NCBI GenBank assembly: GCA_964016885.1
Contig: OZ024741.1
Coordinates: forward strand, 172,980,001-173,044,000
Direction: 5' to 3'
Origin: Eledone cirrhosa
Lineage: Eukaryota
DNA length: 64,000 bases
This document shows, in pieces, positions 1 through 60,310 of the stretch; position 1 is the first letter of the stretch, and each line of letters starts with the position of its first letter. The position numbers were made by a program, and so were the translations under genes. Under the pieces are notes generated by a model. It saw only the letters and a list, made by a program, of their open reading frames with translations. It was not told the DNA's origin and made no database searches.

Positions 1-37
1 TGCTGTCTGGAAATGCAACAGCATTTACATACATACA

Positions 38-600
38 TGGTGGCTGCCAACTCGTTTTCGAGTACGGCCACTACTTTATATCCATGTAGGAGAACCCCTA
101 CCGATGCGCTGAACGAGTGTGACTTTTTAGTCCAGTCAGCGACTTGAAAACTCTGGTACAAACACTACACTTGTGACAATTATTGACACATAGTGCTGGG
201 CCCATGGTACCATGTGACGACAAGTGCAGAGAGATCTCCAGATATAAGTAATGCCTGTGACGTGAAGCTTTTATAGTGAGCAAAGGCACTGCACAAAGCC
301 AGTCCCACTCTCTTAACCAAGATGATATTTACCAAAAAGAAGAACAAGTCAACATCATTGGATACCATCAGAGTTACAGGTGTTATATCAGAGTTTTCCT
401 TCTCCTAGAATTCTGCCTTGACAAAGGCTAAGGGGTCATCTCTCCCGGTGATTTTGGATGGCCATTGACTCTTAAGAGCTCCATTGCCCTTTGACAGGAT
501 TTGTTTTTAGTCCTGCAGGATGTCCAAAGTCACCCTCCTCACCAAGAAACCTTGGTTGGGTTGCCAGTTTAGTCGCCAACGACCAGACCATGGACAGGTT
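38..600 (-). mobile_element. Bipartite RTE-derived non-autonomous element, family A (RTE 5'UTR-like head + RTE 3' end with C2H2 finger, (TATG)n tail)
   Basis: Minus strand encodes CSVCTRVFKSLTGLKSHTRSAHR and ends gtactcgaaaacgagttggcagccacc(atgt)n. It carries the RTE-5'UTR-like motif ctaggagaaggaaaactctga. Near-identical copies at 1455-1803 and 3781-4390. Confidence 0.75.
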
Positions 601-1116
601 GCCCCCTCGTTATCGAGTATGGCCATTGCACGATATACGGTTATTAATAATTATTAATTAATTCTATCCTGCAATGCCTGTGCGTGAAGATATTTTTTAA
701 AGTGAGGAAAGACTGTGCACTGAGCCAATCCCACTCTCTGAGCGACAGTAGCTATAACCCGAAAAGAAGAAAAGATCAACATCATCGGTAACTACTGAGC
801 CGCAGGTTTTATATCGGAGTTATCCCAGTTTCCTGAGTTGCCTTCTCCTAGAAGAATACCCTGACAAAGGCTAGGGGTCCTTCACTCCCACTGGTTTAAC
901 CGCGCGATCGGGTGTCCAGCCCGACTATTTCTATGTCCCCGCGCATATACCTACACATGCACCCATGTATATACACATATACATATACATATGTACATGT
1001 GCATATACATATTTACACACTTTTGGATGGCCGTTGACTCTTATGAGTTCTTCCGCCCTTTTTCAGGTTATGTTTTTTGTCCTGCACGGTGTCCAAAATC
1101 ACCCTCCTCACCAAGT
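601..1116 (-). mobile_element. RTE-related non-autonomous element/SINE, family B
   Basis: Reverse complement of about 12530-13055. Shares head and central motifs with family A. RTE-type 3' end ggccatactcgataacgagggggc. Confidence 0.7.
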
Positions 1117-1156
1117 AAAGATACATATATACATACATACATACACGCATACATAC

Positions 1157-1421
1157 ATGTAAAACATTCCAAAAATGTTGCATCTAATAACTGCATATAC
1201 ACATGTAGATACAAAGCGTATACACATGCACACATACAACTCAAAACATATACATCCACACATACAATAACATCCATACCTACATATGCATGCATGCAGA
1301 CACGCATACATATCTACCTAGTTGATGTTGTGTAAATTCCAATGAGAGAGTCTTGTGTCTATGTTAGAAACCGACTCTCTCTCTATTGGTAAAACTTTGT
1401 GAAATTATAAAACCAGAAGAA
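1157..1421 (+). mobile_element. R4/Dong-type LINE family D1, extreme 3' end
   Basis: CKTFQ C-terminus plus 3'UTR matching about 2455-2721. (CATA)n on both sides. Confidence 0.8.
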
Positions 1422-1454
1422 CATACATACATACACACATACATACATACATAC

Positions 1455-1803
1455 ATGGTGGCTGCCAACTCGTTTTCGAGTACGGCCACTACTTTACATC
1501 CATGTAGGATAACCCCTACCGAAGCGCTGAACGAGTGTGACTTTTTAGTCCAGCCAGCGACTTGAAACCTCTGGTACAAACACTACACCTGTGACAATCA
1601 TTGACACATAGTGCTAGGCCCATGGTAGGACAATTATTGACACATAGTGCTGGGCCCATGTGAGGACAAGTGCAGAGAGATCTCCAGATATAAAGCAATG
1701 CCTGTGCCGTGAAGCTTTTATAGTGAGCAAAGGCACTGCACAAAGCCAGTCCCACTCTCTTAACCAAGATGCTATTTACCAAAAAGAAGAACAAGTCAAC
1801 ATC
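1455..1803 (-). mobile_element. Family A element, 5'-truncated
   Basis: Matches about 38-357. Flanked by (CATA)n. Confidence 0.75.
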
Positions 1804-1869
1804 ATACATACATACATACATACATACATACATACATACATACATACATACATACATACATACATACAT

Positions 1870-2721
1870 AACACCTAAATGTGATAACAAGTGCAGACTC
1901 TGCAGAACTAACATCGAGGATATCACCCATGTCATCAGCAACTGCCCAAAGATGTCATCGCGGTACTATCTACCTATGAGGCATGATGTAGTGGCCAAAA
2001 CACTGTACAATGCAGTTCGTAAAAAAGATAGCCCCGATAACAAACACATTAAAAGCTACAATAATGTGGAAGACATCCATGTACATAATATGAAAGAGTA
2101 CTGGTGGAATGTTCCAGTAAAAACCCCAATAAAATGCAGGCATAACAGACCAGATATTATGATATGGGACAGGGAGTAGAAGACATGCACAGTAGTGGAA
2201 ATTAGCTGCCCAGCAGATGCCAATATAATATCAAAGATTAGTGAAAAGGAGAATATTTATGCAGAACTGATGAGAAATCTGCAGATACTCCACCCTGATT
2301 ACACCTTCAGATTTATGCCTGTGATTATTGGGGCACTGGGATATGTTAGTAACTGCCTGAATATAAATCTTGAGAAGCTAGGCTTCACAGGAACAGAAAG
2401 AACACAACTAGTTAGGAAATTACAAGTACAATCCATTAATGGAACAGTAAGAATATGTAAAACATTCCAAAAATTTTGCATCTAATAACTGCATATACAC
2501 ATGTACAGATACAAAGCATATACACATGCACACATACAACTCAAAACATACACATCCACACATACAATAACATCCATATCTACACATGCATGCATGCAGA
2601 CATACATAAATATCTACCTAGTTGATGTTGTGTAAATTCCAATGAGAGAGTCTTATGTCTATGTTAGAAACCGACTCTCTCTCTATTGGTAAAACTTTGT
2701 GAAATTATAAAACCAGAAGAA
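1870..2721 (+). mobile_element. R4/Dong-type LINE D1, 5'-truncated (CCHC finger + restriction-like endonuclease)
   Basis: CRLC..EDITHVISNC..MRHD, then HNRPDIMIWD..VEISCP..EKE, with one in-frame stop. Flanked by (CATA)n. Confidence 0.88.
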
Positions 2722-2807
2722 CATACATACATACATACATACATACATACATACATACATACATACATACATACATACATACATACATACATACATACAT
2801 ACATACA

Positions 2808-3237
2808 TAAGCACAACCGGCCTGATATTGTAGTTTGGGACCACACATTGAAAACGTGTTCTGTTGTGGAGATCAGCTGCCCACTTGATGTAAACGTTGT
2901 CAGAAAAATACAGGAGAAGGAGGACATCTACGGACCATTGATGAGGAGCTTACAAATCCAGTATCCAAGATACACCTTTAGCTTCATACCCATCATTATT
3001 GGTGCTACGGGTTATATACCAACCCGCTTGGACCAAAGTATGACCGAACTTGGATTTGCGGACAAAAAGCGCAGCTCCCTAATTCATAGTCTACAAATGG
3101 CTGCGATAGCTGGCACCTTCAAAATATGCAAAACATTCTTGCGATTCAAGGGATGACAATTTCTTTTCTTTTACAACGTTGCCACCAGGAAGGTGGCCGG
3201 TCAAAAAAATATACTCGAAATTAAGAGAAAGAGAAAA
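2808..3237 (+). mobile_element. R4/Dong-type LINE family D2, 5'-truncated
   Basis: KHNRPDIVVWD..VEISCPLD..CKTFLRFKG, near-identical to about 35982-36410. (CATA)n flanks. Confidence 0.88.
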
Positions 3238-3300
3238 CATACATACATACATACATACATACATACATACATACATACATACATACATACATACATACAT

Positions 3301-3706
3301 GAGGATTTCGGCGTCTTCACAGTCGATTGCCGTCTCTTATTGATTTTTGTTATCACCCCATCTACGTCCATGACTTCGTAGATAACTTTGTAGACCAACT
3401 GTAGATCTGCATGGTTTACGACACAGGGGACAGAGAGAGTTTTGCTTTCCACAGGACCGGTGGTGTTACCCTGTGGGATACAATCTTTATGCACCACCAT
3501 GTCCTTTTTTTAATCGGAAACTAGTTCTACACACTTTGTTGTATATCATTCGCGTTGTTTCGCCAGGTCTTTGTTAAGAGGTGTTGCAGGTGTTTATCCT
3601 TTCATGTGACTTCAGGTGATTAATATAACCAGCCTTTGAGAGGAGTACACGCTGAGAGAAATTGCATATCCAACAACTGATGACTTCATTAAGACTATGA
3701 ACACGT
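3301..3706 (-). mobile_element. 3' end of an RTE-like LINE with tandem C2H2 zinc fingers and (TATG)n tail
   Basis: [39 protein letters not shown] and a frameshifted C..CRKPCRS..GLQS.LRSH. Flanked by (CATA)n. Confidence 0.6.
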
Positions 3707-3780
3707 ACATACATACATACATACATACATACATACATACATACATACATACATACATACATACATACATACATACATAC

Positions 3781-4390
3781 ATGGTGGCTGCCAACTCGTT
3801 TTCGAGTACGGCCACTACTTTATATCCATGTAGGAGAACCCCTACTGATGCGCTGAACGAGTGTGACTTTTTAGTCCAGCCAGGGACTTGAAAACTCTGG
3901 TACAAACACTACACTTGTGACAATTACTGACACATAGTGCTGGGCCCATTGTACCATGTCACGACAAGTGCAGAGAGATCTCCAGATATAAAGCAATGCC
4001 TGTGCCGTGAAGCTTTTATAGTGAGCAAAGGCACTGCACAAAGCCAGTCCCACTCTCTTAACCAAGATGATATTTACCAAAAAGAAGAACAAGTCTACAT
4101 CATTGGATACCATCAGGGTTGCAGGTGTTATATCAGAGTTTTCCTTCTCCTAGAATTCTGCCTTGACAAAGGCTAAGGGGTAATCTCTCCCGGTGATTTT
4201 GGATGGCCATTGACTCTTAAGAGCTCCTTTGACCTTTGACAGGTTTTGTTTTTAGTCCTGCAGGATGTCCAAAGTCACCTTCCTCACCAAGAAACCTTGG
4301 TGGGGTTGCCAGTTTAGTCGCCAACGACCCGACCATGAGACAGGTTGTACTGGGATACATGTTACCAGTAGCACCAACTGGTGACCTGAC
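3781..4390 (-). mobile_element. Family A element, apparently full length (about 610 bp)
   Basis: Longest copy. Head gtcaccagttggtgctactggtaacatg is similar to the family B head at 12446. (CATA)n on both sides. Confidence 0.78.
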
Positions 4391-4559
4391 ATACATACAT
4401 ACATACATACATACATACATACATACATACATACATACATACATACATACATACATACATACATACATACATACGAAATTACGGGATGAGAAGCTTGCAA
4501 AAGAGACATGGATTATAGTGACAAATGCTTGTGCAATATGAATGCCAGTCTCTACGTCT

Positions 4560-4866
4560 CTGGACCATTGATGAGGAGTTTACAAATCCAGTATCCAAGA
4601 TACACCTTTAGCTTCATACCCATCATTATTGGAGCTACGGGTTATATACCAACCCGCTTGGACCAAAGTATGACTGAACTTGGCTTTGCGGACAAAAAGC
4701 GCAGCTCCCTAATTCATAGTCTACAAATGGCTGCGATAGCTGGCACCTTCAAAATTTGCAAAACATTCTTGCGATTCAAGGGATGACAATTTCTTTTCCT
4801 TTACAACCTTGCCACCAGGAAGGTGGCCGGTCACAAAAATATACTCGAATTAAGAGAAAGAGATAA
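4560..4866 (+). mobile_element. Dong D2, 5'-truncated
   Basis: GPLMRSLQIQYPRY..CKTFLRFKG plus the D2 3'UTR hairpin gccacc-aggaa-ggtggc. Confidence 0.85.
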
Positions 4867-5299
4867 CATACATACATACATACATACATGAATTCATGCA
4901 TGCATACATACATACTTACACACACAGGCACACACAGGCACACACAAGCATACGCAGGCACATGCAGACATACATACGTATTTACCTAGTTGATGTTGTC
5001 TAACATCAACTGTCTTGTGCCTATGTTAGAAACCTTCTCTCTCTCTCGATATATGAAATTTATAAAATGATAAAATCAGAATATACATAAAATGACGATC
5101 GTTTTTGGTCAGTCCGATACTCGTGTGTAAATACTGCTTATATGAAGGCAACATAACATATATTGGAAAAGTTGAGTTACAGAATTTGGTAGGATTACAT
5201 ACGAATATATCTACATAAGTGTTTAAACATTACATATATTGTGACAACCTGAAAGAAAAGATTACCCAAGACATAAACAATTCTAAATTTAGTTCAGAA

Positions 5300-6895
5300 A
5301 AAACTGTGTCGAAACTTTTAAAGAAGGGCATCGTCTATTTTGAAAAATAAATACAAATATCAGTGAATAGACAAAATTATCATGATTAAACGTAGTAGTC
5401 TCCTTCGACCAATTCTTAACTACTATCATTGTATTCAATGGAGCTACAATCTTAACAAAGATCTATATGAAGCATATATACAATCTAATCCAAAAGATTT
5501 CGGATTTATGCAAAGGTTAAAACATTTGTGGAAGTCCAAATACCCAGAATTAAAATCATTAGATATCAATTGATGCATTTAACGGAACTGTCTGATTCAA
5601 ATAAAGAGGCTGACACTACAAAGCCAACCATTGAAGGCAACTGCTAAATGGTTTATTTGCCAGAGATTCCAAGTCAGTCTACACTAGATTCAAAGTGAGA
5701 TGCACACTCTCTGCAAAAGACAGAAGATCAGGTTGAGAGCTACGGAGGATCTGTATGGGAAAGAAATGGCGAATTTAACAAACAAGCTGTATGACTAAAA
5801 GAACTGGAGTAGGACTACTGTCAGCATATCCTGCAAAAGCAATACGAAATACGCAGTGCAGTACTGGAAACAGCTCTACAGAAAATGTCAAACAGGAAAT
5901 CCCCTAGCCTAGGCCTAGACCTCATAATAGATTACTGTTGGAAGGATTTCACCAATTGTCGGTGAGATCCCATACGGTTGTATGGAAAAATGATCAAGAG
6001 GAGACAATAACTGTCCCAAGTTATCAACTGACACTACTCTCCTCGTCCATAAAATAATCAAACCACCTTTGCTAAACATTGCCGCCCAGTAGCCTGTCAG
6101 AATATCATCAAATAATTGTACACTGGAGGCCTCAATCACTTCTTGCAGGATTGTTGTGCTACCAACAACAGTATAACACCTGAGCAAGCCGGGAAAAAGA
6201 ATGGGTTGTGGGGCTGTATAGAACAACTACTTATTAACAAAATGATCCAGGAAAAAACAGTAAAGAATCGCAGGAACTTGACTATAGCATGGTTAGACTA
6301 CCAGACGTCTTTTGATAGTATACCACATGGGTGAATTATCAAAACTTTACAGTTAGCCCAAATCTCCAAACCATTAGAAGATGCTATCGAACCCCTGACC
6401 AATACTTGGTACACCAATTTTCTCCTTATGAGCAAATTAAATCTAATAGCAGTCACTATCAAAATAAATATTTCAGGGTGACAGATTGTCAGTGCTGCTT
6501 GTCATCCTTTTATTAAACCCCCTATCATAACTGCTCACAAAACATAGTTGCCATAGAAATAGATCCCATCTTTTCTTTGTCGATAACTTAAAATTGTATG
6601 GGCCAAATACCAACCTGATAAAAAACAAGGTATTTCCCAATTTTCTGCTGTCATTTGAACGAAATTTGGTGAGTCGAAATGTACATATTTTACAATAAAA
6701 CGTACAAAAGTTGCGCCCGCCTCTGAAAACCTGCAAATGAACGACATAACGATACAACCTCTACATTCAGATAACTATTATAGGTATTTGGAACAGGATG
6801 AGAATGTCAGATATGACGGGTCCATAAATAAGGAGAGGAATAGGAATAAATTCTTCAGAAGAGTAAAGAGAATATAGAACTCTCAGCGTACAAAG
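5300..6895 (+). pseudogene. Decayed, internally deleted Dong D2-like LINE (N-terminus + RT)
   Basis: WSYNLNKDLYEAY..GFMQRLKHLW N-terminus and PEQAGKKNGLWGCIEQLLINKMI..WLDYQTSFDSIPH. Homologous to about 33900-35120, with many lesions. Confidence 0.75.
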
Positions 6896-7197
6896 AACAC
6901 ACGAAGTTTCTTTTTAGAAACATCTAATACAAATACAATGCCGAAAAATAATGGATAAATTAGTTTTTGATACTTAATGAGATAATATTTAAAATCAATC
7001 CGGGTATCCTAGGATTTGCTTTATGCAAATACTGAAAAACTATGGTGAAGAAATTAGATATTTACAATATCAAGAAGAGGAATTTCATTTTACTCTTCCT
7101 TTTGATAGCAAGAAACGGTTTAAAGACATAAGGGTGTCCTCATTCGCTGTCGGTTGTCTTCTGATAATTGTGACCATAATAATAGTTGATCCCAATA

Positions 7198-8229: not shown

Positions 8230-8403
8230 TAATGTATTTATGTTCGCTGGTTTTAATATTTTATGAATTTTCACACATAGAGAAAGTGCCGGTCTCTAAC
8301 ATAGAAACAAGATTCTTTCATTGGAACTGAGACAACATTATCCAGGTAAATATATATGAATGTCTGTATATGTTTGTGTGTGTGCGTGTGTGCGTCTTTG
8401 TGT

Positions 8404-8487
<84 letters not shown>

Positions 8488-11400
8488 AGGTATGGATGTT
8501 ATTGCATGTGTGAGTCTGTATATTTTGAGTACACGTGCATATGGTTCTGTATCTGTATATGTGTATATGCATTACATGCTGAATTTCTGAAATGATTTAC
8601 ATATTTTTACAGCTCTTTTAATGGACTGTAATTGCCATTTCCTAACTAGACATGCTTTTTCTGGTTCTGTGAAACCCACCTTCTCAAAATTTGAACCGAT
8701 ACAGTTCGTAACATTTCCAAGAGCCCCAATAATCACAAATACAAAGGTATATCTGCAGATTCCTTATTAGTTCATATAATTAGCATTATGTTGATATCTG
8801 ATGGGCAGATGATTTTCACTACTGTCGATGCCTCCTTTTGTCTGTTCCATATACCTATGTCTGGTCTGTTTTGTTTTAATTTTATTGGGGATTTTATTGG
8901 GACATTCCACCAGTACTCTGTCTCATATTATGTTTGCATATGCCCTTCACATAACAAACTTTTTATATTTTTATTCTCAAGATTATGCTTTCTATGGATA
9001 TCATTGAATAGTATTTTGGCCATTATATAACGCTTCATAATATCGTGATCACATCTTTAGAAAACTAATTATGATGTGGGTGCCATCTTCAATGTTCATT
9101 CAGCAAATTCTCCATTTGTTGTCACATCTAGGTGCTTTGGCTGCATCCCTAAATCTTTTAAAAATCAGATATTTTCTTATTTCCTGTTCATGGTTTGCAG
9201 AAGTATATCCTTCAAAGTGAGAGCTAATATACCGGTTGTTGATCCAAGATAGGCTACTTTACTTATCTATACTACATTACTCTCACTTTGAAGCGTTCTA
9301 GCAACATAACCATGCATATGTTTTGCTGATAAGCATGCATCGTTTCATTCATGTATTCGTTGCGGTATTGTAGTGCAATTTCTATGGATTTTATATTTTG
9401 GTTATCATGCAGGAATTATTTCTCAGGGAGCTCCTTCCCAACTTTCATGATGCTATCTGCTTCATGTAGACAGACTTGTTCAATAGGTACGCTTCTACGC
9501 TTGGTTCGTAGATGTTGTCGGGGGATATGTTGCCACACTCAAATGCTGTTTAGATTTTAAACCTGTCTCTCTGTTTAGGTTTTAAGTAAAGGCGGCTGTT
9601 GATGTCGAAATTCCCGATGCCCGTTAGAACTTTTCGGGCTTTAACATCAATGGCTCGGTTCTCATATAGCTTCTAGTCAATGTTGATGTCAACACGGGCA
9701 CACCAAATACATTGAAGACCACTGATTTAAATTGCGAAAACCATATTTTTCTTACTCAGATGATATATTCCCTGGTTGCTTGTTCCATGTTGAAATTCCC
9801 TCATCAGATATTTTTTCATCTATCACTAAGTATCTGTAGCAGTCCTCGTCAGATACCGGTGAAACAGTCATGTCATTGATAAAGATGTTGCTTGATTGGC
9901 TGGTAGTTTTTCCCTCGCTTTACAATCAAAGAGTACTTTTATCCTGGTCACACTCCATCCCTATACTTTTCCAGAACGTCGTAACCAGGTCAAGGTTTTT
10001 CTTCATACCAATTATATTCTTGGCATACAGTTTCCCGTCATCCACTAAAACGCTCTGTCTTAGGTTTGTGTTTCTGACCTCCTTTGAACCAATTACGTAT
10101 CCATATTTCCTCGGCGTGAAGGACAAGAGGTTTACTGACTGTATATATAGGATCACAGAGAGAGACAATCTCCTTGATATTTTATTTTATCAGTGACAAT
10201 ATAGTCCTCCTTTTTTAGTATTTAGCTTCAGGATAGTGGCCCAGGAAGAAGATAGGTTTTCTATGGCTCTGATTATGGTATCTGGGACTTTAGCAAGTTG
10301 AAAGGCCTCTAGTATACAAGAGTGGACAACAGAATCGAATGCTTTCCTGTAGTCCAGCTAGACTGTAACCAAGTTTCTCCTATGTCGCCGCACCTCTGAC
10401 ATCGCAAATTTGTTAATTAGGAGTTGCTCAGAAAACCTAAAACTCCTTTCTTACCAGCTATTTGCTCATCTGTGATCATATTGTTATTGCCACAGTGGTC
10501 TTGGAAGAATATGTTCAGACAGGCTTTATACACTTTATATATGAGGTTATAGCATACAATAGGTCGGTAGGCTTTTGCCAAGTGATTTTCTTTTTTTTTT
10601 GGGGGGGGGGGTCTGCTAATATCAACCGGCTTGGTATATATACATCTCCATTGAGAGATTGCTGGTAGAACTTGATAAGGTACATCGGATGGAAAGCCAG
10701 TGTTTTGTACCAGTAGCCAACAATCAAATCTCTCTTTGGTACTTTCTTACCTTGAAGTTTTCCTATCACAGTCTAAAGGGTATCATCATTGACGCTGTAC
10801 GTTTTAGGGGCAATGCAAGAACAATAGTTCGTTCGGATCTCTTTTAACCACACTGCATCATGGTTGAATTTCTTTTCCTCGTCTCATATTTTTCTTTAGA
10901 TGGAATCTATGTCTTTCTGGGACGGGACCTCAGTGACATTTATTAAATTGCCCCTCATATTTCTATAGACTGATATTTGGTTTTATTAATCATTTTCCTT
11001 TCAACCTCTCTCTTCTTAGATCGGTGTTTCTCGCTGCTGACAGTTCTCAATTCTTGTTTGAGGGCAATCAACTTGTATTGACGAGTTCTGCTTGTACTGA
11101 CTCCAAACATCCTTTCTATTCTATTTTTCACTCTTTGATTTTTGATTTTGTTTATATGTGATAAGCATTGTAACATGGCCGATAGTTTTCCCTAGGTCAA
11201 CGATCTTTTTTCTATTTTTAAAATATACGATGGCATTTCTGTGTTGTTGTTTTTTTTTACATCTCTATTTTCACCAAGATAATGTTTTACTGTCGTTGCT
11301 AGGGCATATAGATAAACGTTAATTTAAAAAATTGTAGGGTTTTTAATTTTTTATAAATATTCACCCCCAATTTCGTCGATAGCACGCAGAAATTCTTTAG

Positions 11401-12390
11401 TTAGCTTCTTGTTTAATATTGTTGTTTTAAGTTTTCTTTTTTCTTTTCGGAGGAGAGAAAGTTTCATACATAAATTAATCTATTTTTGGAAAGTTTTACT
11501 ACAGATAAATTTTAACTCTGTATTCTTCAAATTTTGATGTTGATGGTTAACTTAACTGCGAGATATAGCAGTCGAATTAAAGTCTGTTGTGATATGTGGT
11601 GTAAAATTTGTCGCGAGCATGGTCGTTTCAAGAGTCTTTTCATGTATAACTGTTGTTTGCTGTTGATGGTCAGACTGGCTACGAGAAAATGTAGTAACAT
11701 GGCTACCTGTTGTGAAACGTGTTGATTGTATGTCTGATCTAGGAGAATGCTCACTTGGTGTTGTTATTTATAACGGTTTCATTTTCATTATTGTTTTCAA
11801 TAATATTTATGTTATTTTTACGTTCGACAAACGTTGCTTGTTGGCGTGATTGTTTGGCTGTCAAATAATTTAGCTCTGGGTGAAGTTTGTTCCAGTGTAA
11901 TTTCATTCTGTTCATATAGCCAACAGAGGGATATTTTTTGCCATTTTATAACAATCAAATATGTCGTTATTCAGTTCGTAGCTCCAAGAAAAAAGCGATT
12001 TATAGTTTCGGTTCCTCCTTTAACTACAATTAAAGAGATTCTGTTTACCTTTCTCGTTGTTGTTTTTCTTCCATTCTTCACTAATGTTGTTGATGTTGTT
12101 GTGTCGAGCAACGTTGTTAGTAGCAGGTGAATTGAATTGTTAGACGGATATCTCTACAATTTCGAATAAAAGTTGTCTGTGTACATTATGTGCACATTAT
12201 GTATTCCAGCCGACAGGCTGAGGCCATACTGGGGCACCACCGCAATGAATATCATCAAAAGAATGGCCAATTATTTAACAAGACTGGTAATTGTAGAAAT
12301 TACTGTTAGAGATAGTATTCATCTTAGATTTTATTAATAATCTCCCACACCGTATTTGCGACTATTCGCATCAAAGTTATTGAGTATCAT
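8230..12390 (-). mobile_element. Near full-length decayed R4/Dong LINE (D1-related)
   Basis: D1-like 3'UTR at about 8230-8570, RLE at about 8580-9000 and RT motifs at about 9900-10700, all homologous to 18262-20990. Basic N-terminal region extends to about 12100. Confidence 0.8.
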
Positions 12391-12445
12391 ATATATGCAT
12401 ATATGTATATATGTATATAAATATGTATGTACGTATGTATGTCGA

Positions 12446-13058
12446 GTCACTCCTGAGTGCTACTGGTAACATGTAAGCCAGTACAACCTGTCGCATGGTC
12501 GGGTCGTCCGGCAAGCCCACCAAGTTTACTTGGTGAGGAGGGGGATTTTGGACACCCTGCAGGACAAAAAAACAAAACCTGACAAAGCGCAGAACAACTC
12601 ATAAGAGTCAACGGCCATCCAAAAGTGTGTAAATATGTATATACACATGTACATATGTATGTATATGTATATGTGTATATACATGGGTGCATGTGTGTGT
12701 ATATGTGTGGAGACATATAAATAGTCGGGCTGGACACACGATCGCGCGGTTAAACCACTTGGGAGTGAAGGACCCCTAGCCTTTGTCAGGGCATTCTTTT
12801 AGGAGAAGGCAACTCAGGAAACTGGGATAACCGCGATATAAAACCTGCGGCTCAGTAGTTACCGATGATGTTGATCTTTTCTTCGTTTCGGGTTATAGCT
12901 ACTGTCGCTCAGAGAGTGGGATTGGCTCAGTGCACAGTCTTTCCTCACTTTAAAAAATATCTTCACGCACAGGCATTGCAGGATAGAATTAATTAATAAT
13001 TATTAATAATGGTATATAGTGCAATGGCCATACACGATAACGAGGGAGCAGCCATCAT
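12446..13058 (+). mobile_element. Family B element, full length
   Basis: Reverse complement of 601-1116 plus head. Flanked by (TATG)n. Confidence 0.75.
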
Positions 13059-13086
13059 GTATGTATGTAAATATGTATGTATGCAT

Positions 13087-13394
13087 GTTAAACCACTGGA
13101 ACTGAAGGAGCCCTAACCTTTGTCAGGGCATTCTTCTAGGAGAAGACAACTCAGGAAACTGGGATAACTCCGACATAAAACCTGCCGCTCAATGGTTACC
13201 GATGATGTTGATCTTTTCTTCTTTTCGGGTTATAGCTACTGTCGCTCAGAGAGTGGGATTGGCTCAGTGCACAGTCTTTGCTCACTTTAAAAAATTATTC
13301 ACGCACAGGCATTGCACGATAGAATTAATTAATAATTATTAATAATGTTATATTATGCAATGGCCATACTTGATAACGAGGGGGCAGCCATCAT
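13087..13394 (+). mobile_element. Family B element, 5'-truncated tandem copy
   Basis: Matches about 12750-13058. (ATGT)n tail. Confidence 0.75.
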
Positions 13395-13482
13395 GTATGT
13401 ATGTATTGATGATCCTCCATATTGGAAGAGATTAAAGCTAGTGTTGAACACTGGTAAAGCACCTGGGAAATGTAATATAGTG

Positions 13483-16400
13483 ACTGATATAGTGTAACAA
13501 GGTGGTCCTAAGGTAAAAGATCTGTTGCATAACATATACCAGGTGGGGTTGAAGACTGATATAGTGTAACAAGGTGGTCCTAAAGTAAAATATCTGTTGC
13601 ATAACATATACCAGGTGGGGTTGAAGACTGATATAGTGTAACAAGGTGGTCCTAAAGTAAAATATCTGTTGCATAACATATAACAGGTGGGGTTGAAGAC
13701 TGATATAGTGTAACAAGGTGGTCCTAAAGTAAAATATCTGTTGCATAACATATACCAGGTGGGGTTGAAGACTGATATAGTGTAACAAGGTGGTCCTAAG
13801 GTAAAAGATCTGTTGCATAACATATACCAGGTGGGGTTGAAGACTGATATAGTGTAACAAGGTGGTCCTAAGGTAAAAGATCTGTTGCATAACATATACC
13901 AGGTGGGGTTGAAGACTGATATAGTGTAACAAGGTGGTCCTAAGGTAAAAGATCTGTTGCATAACATATACCAGGTGGGGTTGAAGACTGATATAGTGTA
14001 ACAAGGTGGTCCTAAGGTAAAAGATCTGTTGCATAACATATACCAGGTGGGGTTGAAGACTGATATAGTGTAACAAGGTGGTCCTAAGGTAAAAGATCTG
14101 TTGCATAACATATACCAGGTGGGGTTGAAGACTGATATAGTGTAACAAGGTGGTCCTAAGGTAAAAGATCTGTTGCATAACATATACCAGGTGGGGTTGA
14201 AGACTGATATAGTGTAACAAGGTGGTCCTAAGGTAAAAGATCTGTTGCATAACATATACCAGGTGGGGTTGAAGACTGATATAGTGTAACAAGGTGGTCC
14301 TAAAGTAAAAGATCTGTTGCATAACATATAACAGGTGGGGTTGAAGACTGATATAGTGTAACAAGGTGGTCCTAAGGTAAAAGATCTGTTGCATAACATA
14401 TACCAGGTGGGGTTGAAGACTGATATAGTGTAACAAGGTGGTCCTAAAGTAAAATATCTGTTGCATAACATATACCAGGTGGGGTTGAAGACTGATATAG
14501 TGTAACAAGGTGGTCCTAAAGTAAAATATCTGTTGCATAACATATACCAGGTGGGGTTGAAGACTGATATAGTGTAACAAGGTGGTCCTAAAGTAAAATA
14601 TCTGTTGCATAACATATACCAGGTGGGGTTGAAGACTGATATAGTGTAACAAGGTGGTCCTAAGGTAAAAGATCTGTTGCATAACATATAACAGGTGGGG
14701 TTGAAGACTGATATAGTGTAACAAGGTGGTCCTAAGGTAAAAGATCTGTTGCATAACATATAACAGGTGGGGTTGAAGACTGATATAGTGTAACAAGGTG
14801 GTCCTAAAGTAAAAGATCTGTTGCATAACATATACCAGGTGGGGTTGAAGACTGATATAGTGTAACAAGGTGGTCCTAAGGCAAAAGATCTGTTGCATAA
14901 CATATACCAGGTGGGGTTGAAGACTGATATAGTGTAACAAGGTGGTCCTAAGGTAAAAGATCTGTTGCATAACATATACCAGGTGGGGTTGAAGACTGAT
15001 ATAGTGTAACAAGGTGGTCCTAAGGTAAAAGATCTGTTGCATAACATATACCAGGTGGGGTTGAAGACTGATATAGTGTAACAAGGTGGTCCTAAGGTAA
15101 AAGATCTGTTGCATAACATATACCAGGTGGGGTTGAAGACTGATATAGTGTAACAAGGTGGTCCTAAGGTAAAAGATCTGTTGCATAACATATACCAGGT
15201 GGGGTTGAAGACTGATATAGTGTAACAAGGTGGTCCTAAAGTAAAAGATCTGTTGCATAACATATAACAGGTGGGGTTGAAGACTGATATAGTGTAACAA
15301 GGTGGTCCTAAAGTAAAAGATCTGTTGCATAACATATAACAGGTGGGGTTGAAGACTGATATAGTGTAACAAGGTGGTCCTAAGGTAAAAGATCTGTTGC
15401 ATAACATATACCAGGTGGGGTTGAAGACTGATATAGTGTAACAAGGTGGTCCTAAGGTAAAAGATCTGTTGCATAACATATAACAGGTGGGGTTGAAGAC
15501 TGATATAGTGTAACAAGGTGGTCCTAAGGTAAAAGATCTGTTGCATAACATATAACAGGTGGGGTTGAAGACTGATATAGTGTAACAAGGTGGTCCTAAG
15601 GTAAAAGATCTGTTGCATAAAATATAACAGGTGGGGTTGAAGACTGATATAGTGTAACAAGGTGGTCTTAAGGTAAAAGATCTGTTGCATAACATATAAC
15701 AGGTGGGGTTGAAGACTGATATAGTGTAACAAGGTGGTCCTAAGGTAAAAGATCTGTTGCATAACATATAACAGGTGGGGTTGAAGACTGATATAGTGTA
15801 ACAAGGTGGTCCTAAAGTAAAAGATCTGTTGCATAACATATACCAGGTGGGGTTGAAGACTGATATAGTGTAACAAGGTGGTCCTAAGGCAAAAGATCTG
15901 TTGCATAACATATACCAGGTGGGGTTGAAGACTGATATAGTGTAACAAGGTGGTCCTAAGGTAAAAGATCTGTTGCATAACATATACCAGGTGGGGTTGA
16001 AGACTGATATAGTGTAACAAGGTGGTCCTAAGGTAAAAGATCTGTTGCATAACATATACCAGGTGGGGTTGAAGACTGATATAGTGTAACAAGGTGGTCC
16101 TAAGGTAAAAGATCTGTTGCATAACATATACCAGGTGGGGTTGAAGACTGATATAGTGTAACAAGGTGGTCCTAAGGTAAAAGATCTGTTGCATAACATA
16201 TAACAGGTGGGGTTGAAGACTGATATAGTGTAACAAGGTGGTCCTAAAGTAAAAGATCTGTTGCATAACATATAACAGGTGGGGTTGAAGACTGATATAG
16301 TGTAACAAGGTGGTCCTAAGGTAAAAGATCTGTTGCATAACATATAACAGGTGGGGTTGAAGACTGATATAGTGTAACAAGGTGGTCCTAAGGTAAAAGA

Positions 16401-18261: not shown

Positions 18262-20990
18262 GTTCTTCTGGTTTTATAATTTCACAAAGTTTTACCAATA
18301 GAGAGAGAGTCGGTTTCTAACATAGACACAAGACTCTCTCATTGGAATTTACACAACATCAACTAGGTAGATATGTATGTATGCATGTATGTGGATGTGT
18401 ATGTTTTGAGTTGTATGTGTGCATGTGTATACGCTTTGCATCTGTACATGTGTATATGCAGTTATTAGATGCAAACGTTTTGGAATGTTTTACATATTTT
18501 TACTGTGGATTGTACTTGTAATTTCCTAACTAGTTGTGTTCTTTCTGTTCCTGTGAAGCCTAGCTTCTCAAGATTTGTATTGAGGCAGTTACTAACATAC
18601 CCCAGTGCCCCAATAACCACAGGCATAAATCTGAAGGTGTAATCAGGGTGGAGTATCTGCAGATTTCTGATCAGTTCTGCATAAATATTCTCCTTTTCAC
18701 TAATCTTTGACATTATATTGGCTTCTGATGGGCAGCTAATTTCCACTACTGTGCATGATTTCTTCTCCCTGTCCCATATCATAATATCTGGTCTGTTATG
18801 CCTGCATTCTATTGAGGTTTTTACTGGAACATTCCACCAGTACTCTTTCATATTATGTACATGGATGTCTTCCACATTGTTGTAGCTTTTAATGTGTTTA
18901 TTATCGGGGCTATCTTTTTTACGAACTGCACCGTACAGTATTTTGGCCATTACACCATGCATCATAGGTAGATAGTACCGCGATGACATCTTTGGACAGC
19001 TGCTGATGACATCGGTGATATCCTCGATGTTAGTTCTGCAGAGTCTGCACTTGTTATCACATCTAGGTGTTTTGCCTGCATCCCTATCTCTTTTGTGAAT
19101 CAGGTATTTCGTGTTAATCTCCTGTTCTTGGATTGCAAAAGCGTATCCTTCAAAGTGGGAGCCAATATAGTGGTTGTTGGTCCAAGACAGACTACTTTCC
19201 GTATCTATATTACTCTCACTCTGGAGCTTCCTGGCAACATATCTATGCATGATTGTTTGCTGATAAGCATGCAGTTTTTCATCCATGTATTCACTGCGAT
19301 ACTGCTGAGCGACATCCCTGGATGTGAGTTTTTGATTATCACACAGGGAATATCTCTCGAGGAGTTCCTTCCCAACTCTCATGATCTTATCTATTTCATG
19401 CAGATAGACTTGCTCGAGAAACGGGCTCCTATGCTTCGAGGTTCGTAGCTGTTGTCGGAGAGATATGATGCGATATTCAAATGTGGTCTAGACTGATGTT
19501 AGGCCTCAGCCTCCCTGCTTACGTTTCAAGTAAAGACGGTCTATGTCACTGTTGATGTGGAGGTTTCCGGTGTTGTTTAGTATTTTTTGAGTTCCAACAT
19601 CAACTGCTCGGATTTCGTCTATCGTCCAATTGAGTATTCCAAACGTTAGTGTTAGGACAGGCACAGCAAACACATTGTGAGCCACTGTTTTGTTTTGCGC
19701 AGAGAGTTCCAATGACCAGATCTTTCTTAATCCGGTGTAGTATTGCCTGGTTACGCGTTCTTTATTACAGATACCATTATAGGATATGTTCTCATCTACA
19801 GGTATCTGTAGCAGTCCTCATCAGATATCGGTGAAACAGTTAGGCCATTGATGACAATGTTGCTAGATTGGGTTGTTGTTTTTCCCCGCTTTACAGTCAT
19901 GTATGGCATTTATCTTGGCCAAACTCCATTCCTATATCCTTTGAGAACGTTGTAACCAGATCAACATTTTTCTTCATCCCATCCATATTCTTGGCATAGA
20001 GTTTCAGATCGTCCACAAAGAAATTATCGGTTAGGTTCGTATTTCTGTCCTCCTATGAGCCAATGATGTATCCCTCACATTTCTTGAGCAGAAGGGACAA
20101 GGGGTTTAATGACAAGATGAATAATATCACAGAGAGACTGTCCCCTTGAAATATACCTCTGCAATATTTTATTTTATCAGTGACTCCTCTCTCTCTGTCT
20201 TTAACCTTAGGATAGTAGCCCAAGAAGAAGACAACCTCTCTATGGCTCTGACAATAATGTTTGGGCCTTTAGCAAGTTGGAGGGCCTCTATCATCCAAGA
20301 GTGGGGAACAGAATCAAAAGCTTTCCTGTAGTCCTGCCAGACTGTAGCCATATTCCTCCTAAGTTGTCGCACCTCCGACATCGCAGTTTTGTTGATTAGG
20401 AGTTGTTCAGCACATCCCCAAACCCCTTTCTTTCCAGCTGCTTGTTCATCTGTGATGATGTTATTATTTTCACAGTGATCTTGGAGGAATAGGTTCAGGC
20501 AGGCTGTATACATCCTATACATCAGGTTCTGGCATGCAATGGGTCGGTAGTTTTTTGCCAAGTGGGTGTCTTTGTTCTTGGGGACTAGTAATGTTTGTGC
20601 TAATGTCAACCATTCTGGTATAAGTGTATCTCCCTTAAGAACTTGTTGGTAGAGGTCAGTAAGATACCTCCGATAGAATATCAGTTTTTTGTACCAGTAG
20701 CCGACAATCATGTCTCTTCCTGGTGTTTTCTTATCTTGGAGTTTTCCTATCATAGTCTCAAGGGTACCCTCACTTATTTCGTATGTTTTTGTTGTAGTGT
20801 AGGAGCAATAGTTCTTTCGGATTTCTCTTAGCCACACTGCATCTTGGATGAAATTCTTCTTTTTCTCCATATTTTGCTCCAAAAGGAATCAATGTCTTTC
20901 AGGGATGGGGCCTCAGTGACACTTATTATTTTGCCCTTCATATCTCTATAGACTAATGTTTAGTTTCGTCTGAATCTTTTATTAAGCACT
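18262..20990 (-). mobile_element. R4/Dong LINE D1, 5'-truncated (RT + CCHC + RLE, disrupted)
   Basis: ORFs 20169-20882 (NYRPIAC..DYRKAFDSVPH) and 18465-19382 (AIQEQEI..CRLC..RPD). FVDD near 20010. (TATG)n on both sides. Confidence 0.92.
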
Positions 20991-21008
20991 TGTATGTATG
21001 TATGTATG

Positions 21009-21443
21009 TTTCTCATTCTCTTAATTTCGAGTACATTTTTGACCGGCCACCTTCCTGGTAGTAAGGGTGTAAAAGAAAAGAAATTGTCATACCTTGAATC
21101 GCAAGAATGTTTTGCAAAGTTTTAAGGTGCCAGATATCGCGGCCATTTATAGTCCATGAATTAGGGAGCTGCGCTCTTTGTCCTCAAATCCAAGTTCAGA
21201 GTTCAGTTATACTTCGGTCCAAGCGGGTTAGTATATAGCCTGTAGCTCCAATAATGATGGGTATGAAGCTAAAAGTGTATCTTGGAAACTGGATCTGCAA
21301 ATTCCTCATCAATGGCCCTAGATATCCTCCTTCTCTTGTATTTTTCTTACAACGTTGACATCAAGTGGGCAGCTGATCTCTACAACAGAGCACGTTTTCA
21401 ATGTGTGGTCGTTTGTGTAGCAGATATTTGGTAGGGTTTTCTT
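21009..21443 (-). mobile_element. Dong D2, 5'-truncated and internally deleted
   Basis: Reverse complement of the D2 3' end. The 5'-most ~33 bp match D2 at about 35697-35730, then jump to about 36013. Confidence 0.8.
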
Positions 21444-28560: not shown

Positions 28561-28562
28561 AT

Positions 28563-33214: not shown

Positions 33215-33330
33215 TATATATATATATATATATATACACATACATACATACATACATACATACATACATACATACATACATACATACATACATACATACA
33301 TACATACATACATACATACATACATACATA

Positions 33331-36300
33331 CAAAAGATACACAGCCTTAATGTGAGTGACAGACCATACAACACTAGAGTGAGTAAAGAACCCACTAAAT
33401 TGGAATTGGAAGCGGTGAACGAAATAGCTGGCAATTATCTGAAGGCTATACGATCTAAAGGTGTAGAAACGACATTTGAAACGCTTAATATTTTGTTATA
33501 TGTTTCAGCTGTCACATTGCTATCATATAACACACATCTAAAACCACGCAATCAAGATACAAACAAAAAGCCTGAACCAGCGTGGATGCGAAATTTAAAA
33601 ACCAAAATTTTGTCCCTGAAACGAAGTATCTCACACATCGCAGTCGTTATGAAATGCAGCATAGAGAGCAACTTCACACGACACCAGGAAGACCTAAAAA
33701 AAAGTTAGAGAGACGATTTGGAGATACAAAATTTAAAACTTTGAACTCCAAATTACACCAGTTGAAATAACAACTCACAGCTACAACAGAAAGACTAAAA
33801 TATAAGTCAACAGCACATAAACGACAAGCGCTAAATAGATTGTTTGACAGAGATCTTAAATCAGTTTATCGCAGCTTCGGTGGCAAAAGCTCAATCCCTG
33901 TAAATGACACCCCTTCAAAAGAACAGGTTGAGAGCTATTAGAGATCTGTATGGGAAACGGATGACGGTTTCAACAGTCAAACTAATTGGCTAAAAGAACT
34001 GGAACAGTACTACTGCCAACATGTCCAGACAAAACAATATGACATAGATGGGTCAATACTGGAAACAGCTCTACAGAAAATGGCAAATAGGAAATCACCA
34101 GGCCCAGGCCCATTACAAGATACTGGTTGAAGAATTTCACTTTCTATCGGCAAGATCTCATACGGCTGTTTACAGAAACCATTAAAGGCACACAAGAACT
34201 GCCCAGATGGTTATCAACTGCCACTACTCTCCTCATTCCCCAAAATAGCCAAACCACCCTTGCTAAAAATTACCGCCCAATAGCCTGCCAAAACATCATG
34301 TATAAATTATATACTGGGTGCCTTAACCTGTTCTTACAGGATCACTGTGCTACCAACAACATCATAACACCTGAGCAAGTTGGTGGAAAGAGGAAGGTGT
34401 GGGGTTGCATAGATCACCTACTAACTAATAAAATGATTCAAGAAAAAACAACAAAGAATCGCAGAAACATGACTGTGGTGTGGCTGGACTATCAAAAAAG
34501 CATTTGATAGTGTACCTCTTGGGTGGATTGTTAAGGCTTTACAGTTAGCCAAGATCCCACAACCACTGGTAGCTGCTGTTGAACGTCTGACCAAGAACTG
34601 GTACACCAATTTGATCCTTAGAGGTGAGAAGGAGCAAGTTAAGACTGATAAGATACATTACCAGAAGGGCATCTTTCAGGGTGATAGCTTGTCAGCGCTA
34701 CTCTTCATTCTCTCACTAAATCCACTATCTTACCTACTCAGGAAACAAAGTGGACAAAGAAGTGGGTCCAGAAGTATCTCCCATCTTTTCTTTGTTGATG
34801 ACCTGAAGTTGTATTTGGCCAAATATCAATGACATCAAGAAAAAATTGGACCTCATTACACAATTTTCAACAGACATCAAAATGAAATTTGGTGAGTCCA
34901 AGTGTGCATATTTGGCAGTAAAACGTGGAAGAGCTGGCCCTCCTCTAGAAATCTAGAGATGAACGGCCTGACAATACAACCTCTACAGTCAGGTGACAAC
35001 TACAGATATCTTGGACAGGATGAGAATGTCAGATATGATGGACCCATAAATAAGGAGAGAACCAGAACTGAATACCTCAGAAGAGTAAAGAAAATATGGT
35101 CATCAGAACTGTCAGCGTACAACAAATACATTGCCCACAATACTTATGCTGTGCCAATTCTAACGCTAACATTTGGCCTGCTGAACTGGTCATTGCAAGA
35201 ACTAAGTGAGATGGATGTTAGAACTCGCAAACTTCTCAGTGTTACTGGGAACTTTAATATCAATGGTGATGTGGATAGGCTATACCTCTCACGCAAGGAA
35301 GGTGTCCGGGGTCTAAAATCCATATTAACATCATATGAGACCCGGATAGTAACACTGAAGCAACACCTGCAACCGAGGAAAAAGGTTGGCAACCATCTTG
35401 CCCAGGTTTATGAGCATGAAAAAAAATATATCATTAGAATAGCGACTGATACTGATCTGGAGGAGAGATATGGAATAAAGCCTGATATAAATCTCTCACC
35501 CAGAGAAATCGGAAGATCCTATTCAATGTTCAAACAAGATCAAAAAATTGACCAATTTACAGAAAAAGTTGTGCATGGATACTTGAGACGTAAAACACAG
35601 ACCATAGAGGGGATAAACCACTCAAAAAGCCTGGCATGGAGTTCCGACAAGTTTATGACATCACACCTTGAGGAATATCTCTATGCAATACAGGAACAAG
35701 AACTCCCTACCAAATATCTGCTACACAAAAGGGGAGGGCCATCAGCTGACAATAAATGTAGGCTATGTAAAACAAAGATCGAGGATGTAAGCCACATTGT
35801 TGCCAGCTGCGAAAGAATGTCATCTCGCTACTACCTACCCATGAGATACGATGGGATAGCTAGAACCATCTGGAACGCACTTCGGAAAACAAAATTAACA
35901 ACAAACGAGGAAGAATATATTGAGACAGATGGCACTAAGGAATACTGGTGGAACCTGAAAATAAAAACTGCCACCAAATTAAAGCACAACCGGCCTGATA
36001 TTGTTGTTTGGGACCATACATTGAAAACGTGTTCTGTTGTGGAGATCAGCTGCCCACTTGATGTAAACGTTGTCAGAAAAATACAGGAGAAGGAGGACAT
36101 CTACGGACCATTGATTAGGAGTTTGCAAATCCAGTATCCAAGATACACTTTTAGCTTCATACCCATCATTATTGGAGCTACGGGTTATATACCAACCCGT
36201 TTGGACCAAAGTATGACTGAACTTGGATTTGCGGACAAAGAGCTCAGCTCCCTAATTCATAGTCTACAAATGGCTGCGATAGCTGGCACCTTCAAAATTT

Positions 36301-36410
36301 GCAAATCATTCTTGCGATTCAAGGGATGACAATTTCTTTTCTTTTACAACCTTGCCACCAGGAAGGTGGCCGGTCAAAAGAATATACTCGAAATTAATAG
36401 AAAGAGATAA
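33331..36410 (+). mobile_element. R4/Dong LINE D2, long 5'-truncated copy (RT + CCHC + RLE, frameshifted)
   Basis: [46 protein letters not shown] and HNRPD..EISCP. Flanked by (CATA)n. Confidence 0.93.
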
Positions 36411-59025: not shown

Positions 59026-59774
59026 CATATATATATACACACACCACTCATATGTATCTATCTATATATATATATATACATGCACAACAACACCACCAGC
59101 TCTCTTCCATTTTCCAGTCTCTGTCTCCTCTCTCTCTCTCTATGTCTCTCTTTCAATCTACTCTGTCACAACCACTATCTCTTCTTCTCTCTCTCTATCT
59201 CTCACTGTTTATGAAGGTACCCGTAAAAACCCATACCTTGGGAACCCGTGGTTCGATTTACGTGAAACTTGTTTTATTCTATTTGTATTCCCATTTCAGG
59301 GTCAACTTCCTTTCAAAGTATTTTCCCATTATGCGCTGTGTTGGTTGTATTACATTACAGACAAGCAAGTAAGCAACCACAGACCTTTAGTATTATACTA
59401 GCAGAATGGCTCGGCGTTGCTCGGCATTTGCTCTAGGGTTGTTATATATTTGATATATATTTATCCTTATTGAGCCTCGTGAAATAAATACGCTTGTTTA
59501 TATTTTGTTATTGTGTATGCAAAAATATCTGTACACGAATATATATATATATATATATCCCACAATGTGTCCAAAATCACCCTCCTCGACAAGCAAGCTT
59601 AGTCGGGTTACCTGTTTAGTCGCCCACGACCCGACCATGCACATACATACACACTCACGCACATACATACATATTTACATACATACATACAACATACACA
59701 CACATATATATACACACATACATACATACATACATACATACATACATACATACATACATACATACATACATACA

Positions 59775-60310
<536 letters not shown>

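What the first reader, a model, noticed from the sequence alone, without database searches (positions are those of the whole stretch)
26..4890. (CATA)n-nucleated retroelement train with a strict antisense rule between Dong and RTE families
Seen: in the first 4.9 kb, nine (CATA)n tracts separate about nine insertions from five families. Every Dong (D1, D2) copy has (CATA)n on its sense strand, and every RTE-type copy (A, B, zinc-finger RTE) has (TATG)n on its sense strand. The rule also holds at 12430-13406, 18252-21500 (mirror image), 33237-36425 and 59560-59900. Inference: RTE-type tails seed or extend (TATG)n, Dong endonucleases target the complementary strand, and each insertion leaves two tracts, giving a self-amplifying landing pad shared by two unrelated LINE clades.
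Basis: partly seen in the sequence, partly recalled or inferred. Interest (0 to 1): 0.75.

Follow-up and report, generated by a model that had tools for sequence, protein, structure and literature searches.

The report
Two retrotransposon clades share one microsatellite
In this likely octopod genome, two unrelated kinds of jumping gene sit inside the same CATA/TATG repeats facing opposite ways and pile up into chains like this one, likely because their enzymes cut opposite strands of a repeat that was already there, not because one kind builds it for the other.

Summary
In detail: nine CATA tracts separate nine insertions of five families at 26-4890, Dong-like copies on +, RTE-type on -. Genome-wide, neighbouring Dong/RTE-type pairs are opposite in 88 of 89 cases. 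Truncation points differ, so it is not tandem duplication. The seeding idea fails. RTE-type families carry repeat on both flanks (A 83 of 106, R 15 of 25 at the 5' end), often plain (TA)n, and the two flanks of a copy resemble each other (rho 0.52), so they are co-tenants of existing tracts. The oldest copies here are Dong-like. The 'rule' is two fixed, family-level polarities. A third RTE family lacks it. Nearly all 3' junctions open at the A of the repeat's TpA step, which fits nicking at TpA on opposite strands, as with silkworm TRAS1/SART1 (inferred). Trains are overdispersed and common: one of nine elements turned up in 800 kb of random sequence. Feedback is plausible, not proven. This scan already reported the same system on other pieces of this genome. 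New variant of a known kind; the unusual part is an RTE lineage tied to a repeat.

The parts
26..37 (+). (CATA)3 tract, left edge of the train; no family match upstream
38..601 (-). Family A copy 1, non-autonomous ~610-bp RTE-type element (positions 42-607), fused to B by a CAACC microhomology
597..1119 (-). Family B copy, non-autonomous, shares 5' region with A, carries an internal TATG-like stretch; 5'-truncated, last bases lost at the fusion
1121..1158 (+). CATA tract (head-to-head B/D1)
1157..1420 (+). D1 Dong-like 3' fragment (3834-4094 of 4094)
1421..1456 (+). CATA tract (tail-to-tail D1/A)
1457..1802 (-). Family A copy 2, 5'-truncated, internal 36-bp duplication
1803..1870 (+). (CATA)17 between the 5' ends of A and D1, so it is nobody's 3' tail
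1871..2720 (+). D1 Dong-like 3' fragment coding CCHC finger and RLE (RHD, RPD, VEISCP), one in-frame stop
2721..2808 (+). (CATA)22 tract
2809..3236 (+). D2 Dong-like 3' fragment, youngest copy (99.8% to its closest sampled relatives)
3237..3300 (+). (CATA)16 tract (tail-to-tail D2/R)
3301..3705 (-). Family R: 3' fragment of an APE+RT+C2H2-finger RTE-like LINE, old (about 88% to relatives)
3706..3781 (+). (CATA)19 tract
3782..4388 (-). Family A copy 3, full length; C2H2 finger remnant at 3845-3958
4389..4472 (+). (CATA)21 tract
4473..4553 (-). Internal scrap of an older unrelated family fused to the 5' end of D2; not an element end
4554..4865 (+). D2 Dong-like 3' fragment (3910-4220 of 4222)
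4866..4924 (+). CATA tract, degenerating to the right
4899..5081 (+). Old D1-like 3' UTR remnant (about 74-77%)
5092..6901 (+). Old D2-like copy starting at its 5' end, internally deleted (73-81%)
8247..12369 (-). Old near full-length D1-like copy (72-81%)
12443..13392 (+). Two B copies (full length and 5'-truncated) in TATG-phase repeat
18263..21442 (-). D1 and D2 copies in TATG-phase repeat (CATA on their sense strand)
33330..36409 (+). 3.1-kb 5'-truncated D2 between CATA tracts
59560..59965 (.). A/B 5' fragment (-) and old D1 fragment (+) either side of a CATA tract

Best explanation
The train is a stack of separate insertions of R4/Dong-like LINEs (D1, D2) and RTE-type elements (R, A, B) that sit in the same CATA/TATG microsatellite with fixed, opposite polarity, likely because each family's enzyme nicks one strand of a pre-existing repeat and its RNA end primes there. 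Shown: both groups have repeat at both ends genome-wide; polarity is fixed per family; most 3' junctions open at the A of the repeat's TpA step (Dong ..A|ACAT, A/B/R ..C|AT[G/A]T). Inferred: both nick TpA. RTE-type RNA ending in AU needs a primer ending AT, which a TpA nick gives only on the CATA strand or in (TA)n. Dong RNA ending in ACA needs TGT, which only the TATG strand gives. The antisense rule is therefore the product of two independent polarities, not an interaction. Inferred: each insertion leaves tract on both sides, slippage regrows it, and occupied sites draw more insertions, giving trains.
For: Polarity: 88 of 89; 30 of 32; head-head 15, tail-tail 15, as independent polarities predict; random sample: 6 of 6 D1/D2 ends in CATA; none of 14 A and 5 B ends opens in CATA phase. 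Bilateral flanks: D2 48 and 47 of 53, A 89 and 97 of 106, R 5' 15 of 25. Locus-determined flank: rho 0.52, n=83. Register: after A's terminal CAT, 59 G-starting, 31 ATAT/ATGT, 1 ACAT, 2 other of 93; C in CATA register in 41 of 49 D1 and 33 of 37 D2 ends. The same register is seen for D3 (AAC|AAT) and one Tx1-like copy (C|ATT) in (TAA)n. Intact enzyme source: full-length 4.2-kb D2 copies 99% alike with a 1174-aa ORF, R2-like fold. Clustering: RTE-type neighbour in 14 of 29 D2 and 14 of 29 D1 loci versus 12 of 120 random windows; variance 3.9 versus mean 0.9 over 21 tract clusters; 20 D2-anchored trains average 3.1 versus 1.9 under Poisson. Precedent: TRAS1/SART1 insert in opposite directions in (TTAGG)n, TRAS1 nicking at T-A (PMC7265360 passages); RTE RNA-end repeats may guide nick or priming (PMC6007223 passages).
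Against: No nick was measured; the junction register only bounds it, because microhomology hides the exact site. Informative target-site duplications were not above shuffled pairings (D2 2 of 19 vs 1.5; A 5 of 30 vs 4.3; B 2 of 30 vs 0.7). The flank correlation was not significant in the first 29 A copies (rho 0.24, p 0.22), and the larger set mixes loci chosen through different anchors. Overdispersion rests largely on one random nine-element train and could reflect permissive regions; tracts joined to elements are no longer than isolated ones (25 vs 15, p 0.54). Neighbour pairs within a locus are not independent. No autonomous partner of A/B was found. 10 of 25 R copies fail the strict 5' tract test.
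Confidence: 0.7

Rival explanations
1. RTE-type elements make the (TATG)n repeat as a 3' tail (or by RT slippage), and Dong elements then use it: the first reader's seeding model.
For: RTE elements are described as non-specific inserters whose 3' repeats lie between target-site duplications and so create microsatellites (PMC2887409 Discussion). R opens in ATG at 26 of 30 ends; 10 of 25 R copies lack a clear 5' tract. A and B show short variable (CCA)n/(CAT)n tails.
Against: Repeat at 5' ends, flank type set by locus, 27 of 93 A ends open into ATAT, 12 of 21 tract clusters are empty, tracts between two 5' ends exist (1803-1870), and the oldest local copies are Dong-like. A contribution to tract growth is not excluded.
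Confidence: 0.12
2. No sequence-specific enzyme on the RTE side: a relaxed endonuclease nicks fragile alternating purine-pyrimidine DNA, RNA-primer pairing alone sets polarity, and trains mark regions that tolerate insertions rather than feedback.
For: A uses (TA)n, mixed and TATG tracts alike; RTE2 uses (TA)n with no TG bias; TA-type tracts are 7.2% of the genome; tract length does not differ with occupancy.
Against: Bilateral occupancy of 83 of 106 against a 7% background still needs strong preference; phase is kept (G at positions 5, 9, 13 but not 7, 11, 15). For D2 the target is the 0.24% pure-CATA class.
Confidence: 0.13
3. Opposite orientation is selected or evolved as niche partitioning between an RLE and an APE element sharing one target.
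For: The same opposition recurs in a second repeat in this window: D3 (-) and a Tx1/L1-like element (+) in (TAA)n (one copy pair checked here).
Against: Two contrasts agree by chance 1 time in 4; Dong keeps an A-rich sense strand in both repeats, so its polarity looks inherited; same-polarity families (D1/D2; A/B/R) coexist freely.
Confidence: 0.04
4. The train arose by tandem segmental duplication or assembly error.
For: Tandem duplicates exist elsewhere (L118-L120, L019, L094/L095).
Against: Here truncation points differ (A 42, 286, 1; D1 3834, 3246; D2 3795, 3910) and identities to relatives run from 73 to 99.8%.
Confidence: 0.01

Closest known systems
Dong (R4 clade): Bombyx Dong, DongAg, snail DongBg, ostracod Dong1/2
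   Same: Single ORF with N-terminal Myb/SANT-like helices, RT, CCHC finger and RLE; inserts into a microsatellite with repeat on both sides (PMC7998251, PMC3812793 passages).
   Different: Described target is (TAA)n; D1/D2 use (CATA)n, while sister family D3 in this genome keeps (TAA)n (34% identity to D2).
TRAS1 and SART1 of Bombyx mori
   Same: Two families insert in opposite directions into one short repeat; TRAS1 nicks at T-A; RNA-target annealing aids SART1 priming (PMC7265360 passages).
   Different: Both are APE elements on telomeric (TTAGG)n; here an RLE and an APE lineage share dispersed microsatellites genome-wide.
RTE clade LINEs and their non-autonomous derivatives
   Same: APE+RT single ORF, short 3' UTR ending in a small repeat; RNA-end repeat linked to the first base of the target (PMC2887409, PMC6007223). 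A 3' microsatellite is noted for an Octopus RTE (PMC9115989 passage).
   Different: RTE sites are described as not sequence-specific and the repeat as one-sided; R, A and B have repeat on both sides with fixed phase.
WaldoAg/WaldoFs (ACAY), Mino (AC), Kibi (TC), Koshi (TTC)
   Same: APE-type elements that target microsatellites; Waldo's ACAY includes the same ACAT unit (PMC3812793 passage).
   Different: R1 or Tx1 lineages in insects and fish (clade labels recalled), not RTE; no opposite-strand Dong co-tenant is mentioned in the passages read.

Membership tests
R4/Dong clade (D1, D2) | Single ORF with RT and C-terminal CCHC + restriction-like endonuclease, no APE | tested here: met
   1174-aa ORF with RVT_1, zf-RVT, RHD / RPD / VEISCP motifs; no APE hit; best folds are R2 proteins, E 3e-34
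R4/Dong clade (D1, D2) | N-terminal Myb/SANT-like domain without N-terminal zinc fingers | tested here: inconclusive
   Three-helix domain at 27-79 (pLDDT about 85); top structural rows are mostly Myb/SANT-like (Zeste Z 6.3, TRF1 Z 5.6) but all Z<8; Pfam and Foldseek give nothing; no N-terminal finger seen
R4/Dong clade (D1, D2) | Insertion into a microsatellite or rDNA target | tested here: met
   CATA at both junctions
R4/Dong clade (D1, D2) | RT phylogeny inside R4 with named Dong/R4 references | not tested
   No named R4/Dong sequence was returned, so no tree was built; only likeness to the (TAA)n family D3
Dong in the narrow sense | (TAA)n target | tested here: not met
   D1/D2 use CATA; D3 meets it
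R4/Dong clade (D1, D2) | 5' HDV-like ribozyme (shown for Bombyx Dong, PMC3774820) | tested here: inconclusive
   No Rfam match and no hit of my own descriptor at D1/D2 5' ends
RTE clade (R) | APE and RT in one ORF of about 1100 aa, short 3' UTR | tested here: met
   Decayed APE and RT read from R copies; relatives of 1050-1200 aa carry APE+RT+C2H2; closer to RTE2 than to Tx1-like or D2
RTE clade (R) | RT phylogeny with named RTE references | not tested
   All 49 relatives unnamed or hypothetical; the RTE label rests on architecture and recalled motifs
RTE clade (R, A, B) | Non-specific insertion with one-sided 3' repeat between TSDs (typical trait, PMC2887409) | tested here: not met
   Repeat on both sides
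RTE-dependent non-autonomous element (A, B) | 3' end shared with or derived from an RTE LINE | tested here: inconclusive
   A ends in a C2H2 finger 54-59% like fingers of R-lineage proteins, terminal in two of them, over 22-24 aa and in CAT like R, but no autonomous copy with A's or B's 3' end was found

The most novel reading that the evidence does not exclude
A general strand-partition rule: in this genome an RLE element and an APE element split each palindromic TpA step of a shared microsatellite by strand (Dong vs RTE in CATA, Dong vs Tx1-like in TAA), set by the last 2-3 bases of the RNA; an RTE lineage has become repeat-targeted; and insertions regrow their own targets into self-feeding trains, helped by a ~110-bp RTE-dependent mini-element that carries (ATT)n pads into TA/TATG tracts.
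Probability: 0.3. Interest if true: 0.65.

Novelty: new variant of a known kind. Interest (0 to 1): 0.42.

Why it matters
It gives a natural, high-copy test of how non-LTR retrotransposons choose target and orientation: sister Dong families on (TAA)n and (CATA)n, an intact young D2 enzyme, and RTE-type families with and without polarity in one genome. A repeat-targeted RTE lineage departs from the usual description of that clade. It also offers a route by which tens of thousands of insertions (A about 60,000, D1 and D2 about 10,000 each, extrapolated from 16, 3 and 3 ends in 800 kb) stack in low-harm sites, and warns that CATA/TATG markers in these animals have multicopy flanks.

Tried and rejected
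Exact TSD detection: not above shuffles; single clear cases exist (L055 30 nt, L129 22 nt). Ribozymes: Rfam gave only repeat-driven microRNA noise; my HDV-like descriptor gave no convincing hit for A, B, D1 or D2; the A/B 5' end folds with 2 of 31 pairs changed on both sides, too weak to name. Internal CATA-like stretch of D1's 3' UTR or of B as carried landing pad: 0 of 47 D1 and 0 of 5 B copies split by these families. 5' tract longer than 3' as an amplifier: D2 38 vs 12 (p 3e-4), but 8 vs 3 in singletons (p 0.23), D1 15 vs 16, A 37 vs 39; unresolved. Autonomous partner of A/B: none; R's 5' region showed no match to A or B. R 5' counts were dropped because the reference was short or deleted; redone. 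One anchor row (L287) was mis-assigned and corrected (mean 3.15 to 3.1). Two of three peptides were out of frame and say nothing. Foldseek found no match for the N-terminal domain. No read evidence for empty alleles was obtained. Xiong and Eickbush 1993 is not held.
Full report
Setting. The window lies in G000:C2, a 3.0-Gb animal genome. The best named relative of the D2 protein is from Argonauta hians (65% identity over 61% of the query), so the animal is likely an octopod. RTE and Dong-R4 are reported as recently active LINE groups in Octopus vulgaris (PMC13282606, passages).

The observation. Nine CATA-phase tracts separate nine insertions between 26 and 4890: A(-), B(-), D1(+), A(-), D1(+), D2(+), R(-), A(-), D2(+). 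B and the first A are fused by a CAACC microhomology. The piece at 4473-4553 is an internal scrap of an older family. Truncation points differ among copies of each family. Identities to sampled relatives run from 99.8% (D2 at 2809) to 88% (R); the adjoining Dong-like copies at 4899-6901 are oldest, at 73-77%. The train is therefore a stack of separate insertions over a long time, and Dong-like elements were at this site early.

What the families are. Full-length D2 is 4222 bp; sampled copies are about 99% alike, and three (L153, L154, L158; also L156) hold an open 1174-aa frame. It has RT, a CCHC finger and RLE motifs, folds like R2 proteins, and begins with a three-helix domain whose best structural matches are Myb/SANT-like but weak. 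This fits the R4/Dong anatomy described in PMC7998251 (passages). D1 is a 4.1-kb sister, 52% identical in protein. R is a decayed APE+RT element with C-terminal C2H2 fingers; the RTE label rests on architecture and recalled motifs, not on a tree with named references. A and B are ~610-bp non-coding elements that share a 5' region. A ends in a finger like those of R-lineage proteins. Their driver was not found.

Genome-wide polarity. For each of five families I took the 30 best-scoring 3' ends (of 161-754 candidates; a sample biased to young, similar copies). D2 had CATA at 29 of 30 3' ends and 19 of 20 closed 5' ends, D1 at 22 of 30 and 17 of 24, and neither had TATG; A, B and R never had CATA. 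In 145 non-window loci, Dong/RTE-type neighbours were opposite in 88 of 89 pairs, RTE-type pairs parallel in 93 of 99 and Dong pairs in 32 of 35 (pairs are not independent). In 20 wider D2 loci plus 80 evenly spaced 10-kb stretches, adjacent mixed pairs were opposite in 30 of 32, split 15 head-to-head and 15 tail-to-tail. The evenly spaced sample agrees.

Targets, not tails. If RTE-type tails built the repeat it would be one-sided and uniform, as described for lepidopteran RTEs (PMC2887409, abstract and Discussion). Instead A has repeat at 89 of 106 5' ends and 97 of 106 3' ends, and the G content of the two flanks correlates (rho 0.52, n=83; not significant in the first 29). R has it at 15 of 25 closed 5' ends. 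B's figure (20 of 44) is diluted by a mini-element sharing its last 38 bases. After A's terminal CAT the next bases are GTAT in 52, ATAT in 27 and ACAT in 1 of 93 copies. Twelve of 21 random pure-tract clusters hold none of these elements. Exact duplications could not be shown above shuffles. The rule is also not clade-wide: RTE2 (56064-59062) sits in (TA)n with C- and G-type impurities alike.

Mechanism (inferred). Most 3' junctions begin matching the repeat at the A of its TpA step: D1 ..AGA|ACAT, D2 ..AAA|ACAT, A/B/R ..C|ATGT or |ATAT, RTE2 ..G|ATAT, D3 ..AAC|AAT, and one Tx1-like copy ..C|ATT. TpA is self-complementary, so each CATA unit offers it on both strands. A nick there on the CATA strand leaves a primer ending AT, which pairs with an RNA ending AU. 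A nick on the TATG strand leaves TGT, which pairs with ACA. This one rule accounts for the polarity, the phase, A's free use of (TA)n and D2's need for C. It is not measured, and microhomology hides the exact nick. Precedents: TRAS1/SART1 in opposite directions on (TTAGG)n, with a T-A nick and RNA-target annealing (PMC7265360, passages); RTE RNA-end repeats guiding nick or priming (PMC6007223, passages).

Trains. D1 and D2 loci have an RTE-type neighbour in 14 of 29 each, against 12 of 120 random windows, which shared targets alone would give. Beyond that, counts per tract cluster are overdispersed (mean 0.9, variance 3.9, n=21), 20 D2-anchored trains average 3.1 elements against 1.9 for Poisson, and a nine-element train fell in the random 800 kb. 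The train here holds 480 bp of pure tract, while the longest of 15 isolated pure tracts was 72 bp, so tract has grown. Feedback is likely but not separated from permissive regions; occupied tracts are individually no longer than empty ones (p 0.54).

Known and new. Microsatellite targeting is known for Dong (TAA), Waldo (ACAY), Mino, Kibi and Koshi (PMC3812793, passages), and RLE elements are mostly target-specific (PMC4640811, passages). I found no paper describing a CATA-targeting Dong, a repeat-targeted RTE lineage, or their opposite-strand sharing (searches; listings only, apart from the papers named). The library lacks most subscription papers and Repbase, Kojima and Fujiwara 2004 was seen only as a citation, and no supplements were opened. 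PMC9115989 (passages) notes a 3' microsatellite on an Octopus RTE; PMC3774820 (passages) shows a 5' ribozyme in Bombyx Dong, which I could not find here. Earlier notes of this scan report the same CATA system on three other pieces of this genome and the TAA system on five; they agree with, but are not evidence for, this reading, which I had stated before looking.

Verdict. Real, genome-wide and ordinary for this genome. A new variant of known repeat-targeting retrotransposons, working like TRAS/SART but across two endonuclease classes. Interest 0.42.

Noticed in passing
window 46296-54308: Second guild: Dong-like D3 (-), an (ATT)11 tract, then a Tx1/L1-like element (+) with an open 1147-aa ORF2 ending in (ATT)16; opposite strands of (TAA)n. 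D3 had (AAT)n after all 20 sampled 3' ends.
   Followed up: partly
L021, L022, L068, L070, L128, L143, L150, L161, L163, L198, L287, L292: Mini-element of about 110 bp: T-rich/(ATT)n body plus the last ~38 bases of family B, lying in TA/TATG tracts; 12 distinct copies. It would carry the D3/Tx1 target into new sites.
   Followed up: partly
window 56064-59062 (-): RTE2, a near full-length RTE-like LINE ending in a short CAAGGTGAT-type repeat, in (TA)n; 9 of 25 sampled loci have an inverted RTE2 piece at or near the 5' end, suggesting twin priming.
   Followed up: partly
L314:1548-7253: Nine-element A/D1/D2 train found in an evenly spaced random stretch.
   Followed up: partly
window 13482-16579: 72-bp satellite, 43 copies, 98% matches.
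   Followed up: no
window 4473-4553; L237-L245: Older non-coding family with a motif like A's GAGAAGGAAAACTCTGA, not tied to microsatellites.
   Followed up: partly
window 4280-4390 (-) and 12441-12550 (+): A and B start at a sharp GTC(A/G)GGTCAC 5' end with several hairpins and slight covariation; a self-cleaving RNA is possible but unidentified.
   Followed up: partly
window 25712-30885: Broken RT-like frames (YxDD-type, GIY-like end) among (AAT/TGT)n repeats, possibly Penelope-like (label recalled); no Pfam hit.
   Followed up: no
L322, L339, L304: Other short elements also end in B's last 60-70 bases, so several families may share that 3' signal.
   Followed up: no
L118-L120, L019, L094/L095: Tandem or segmental duplicates of element-plus-tract units occur elsewhere in the genome.
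   Followed up: no
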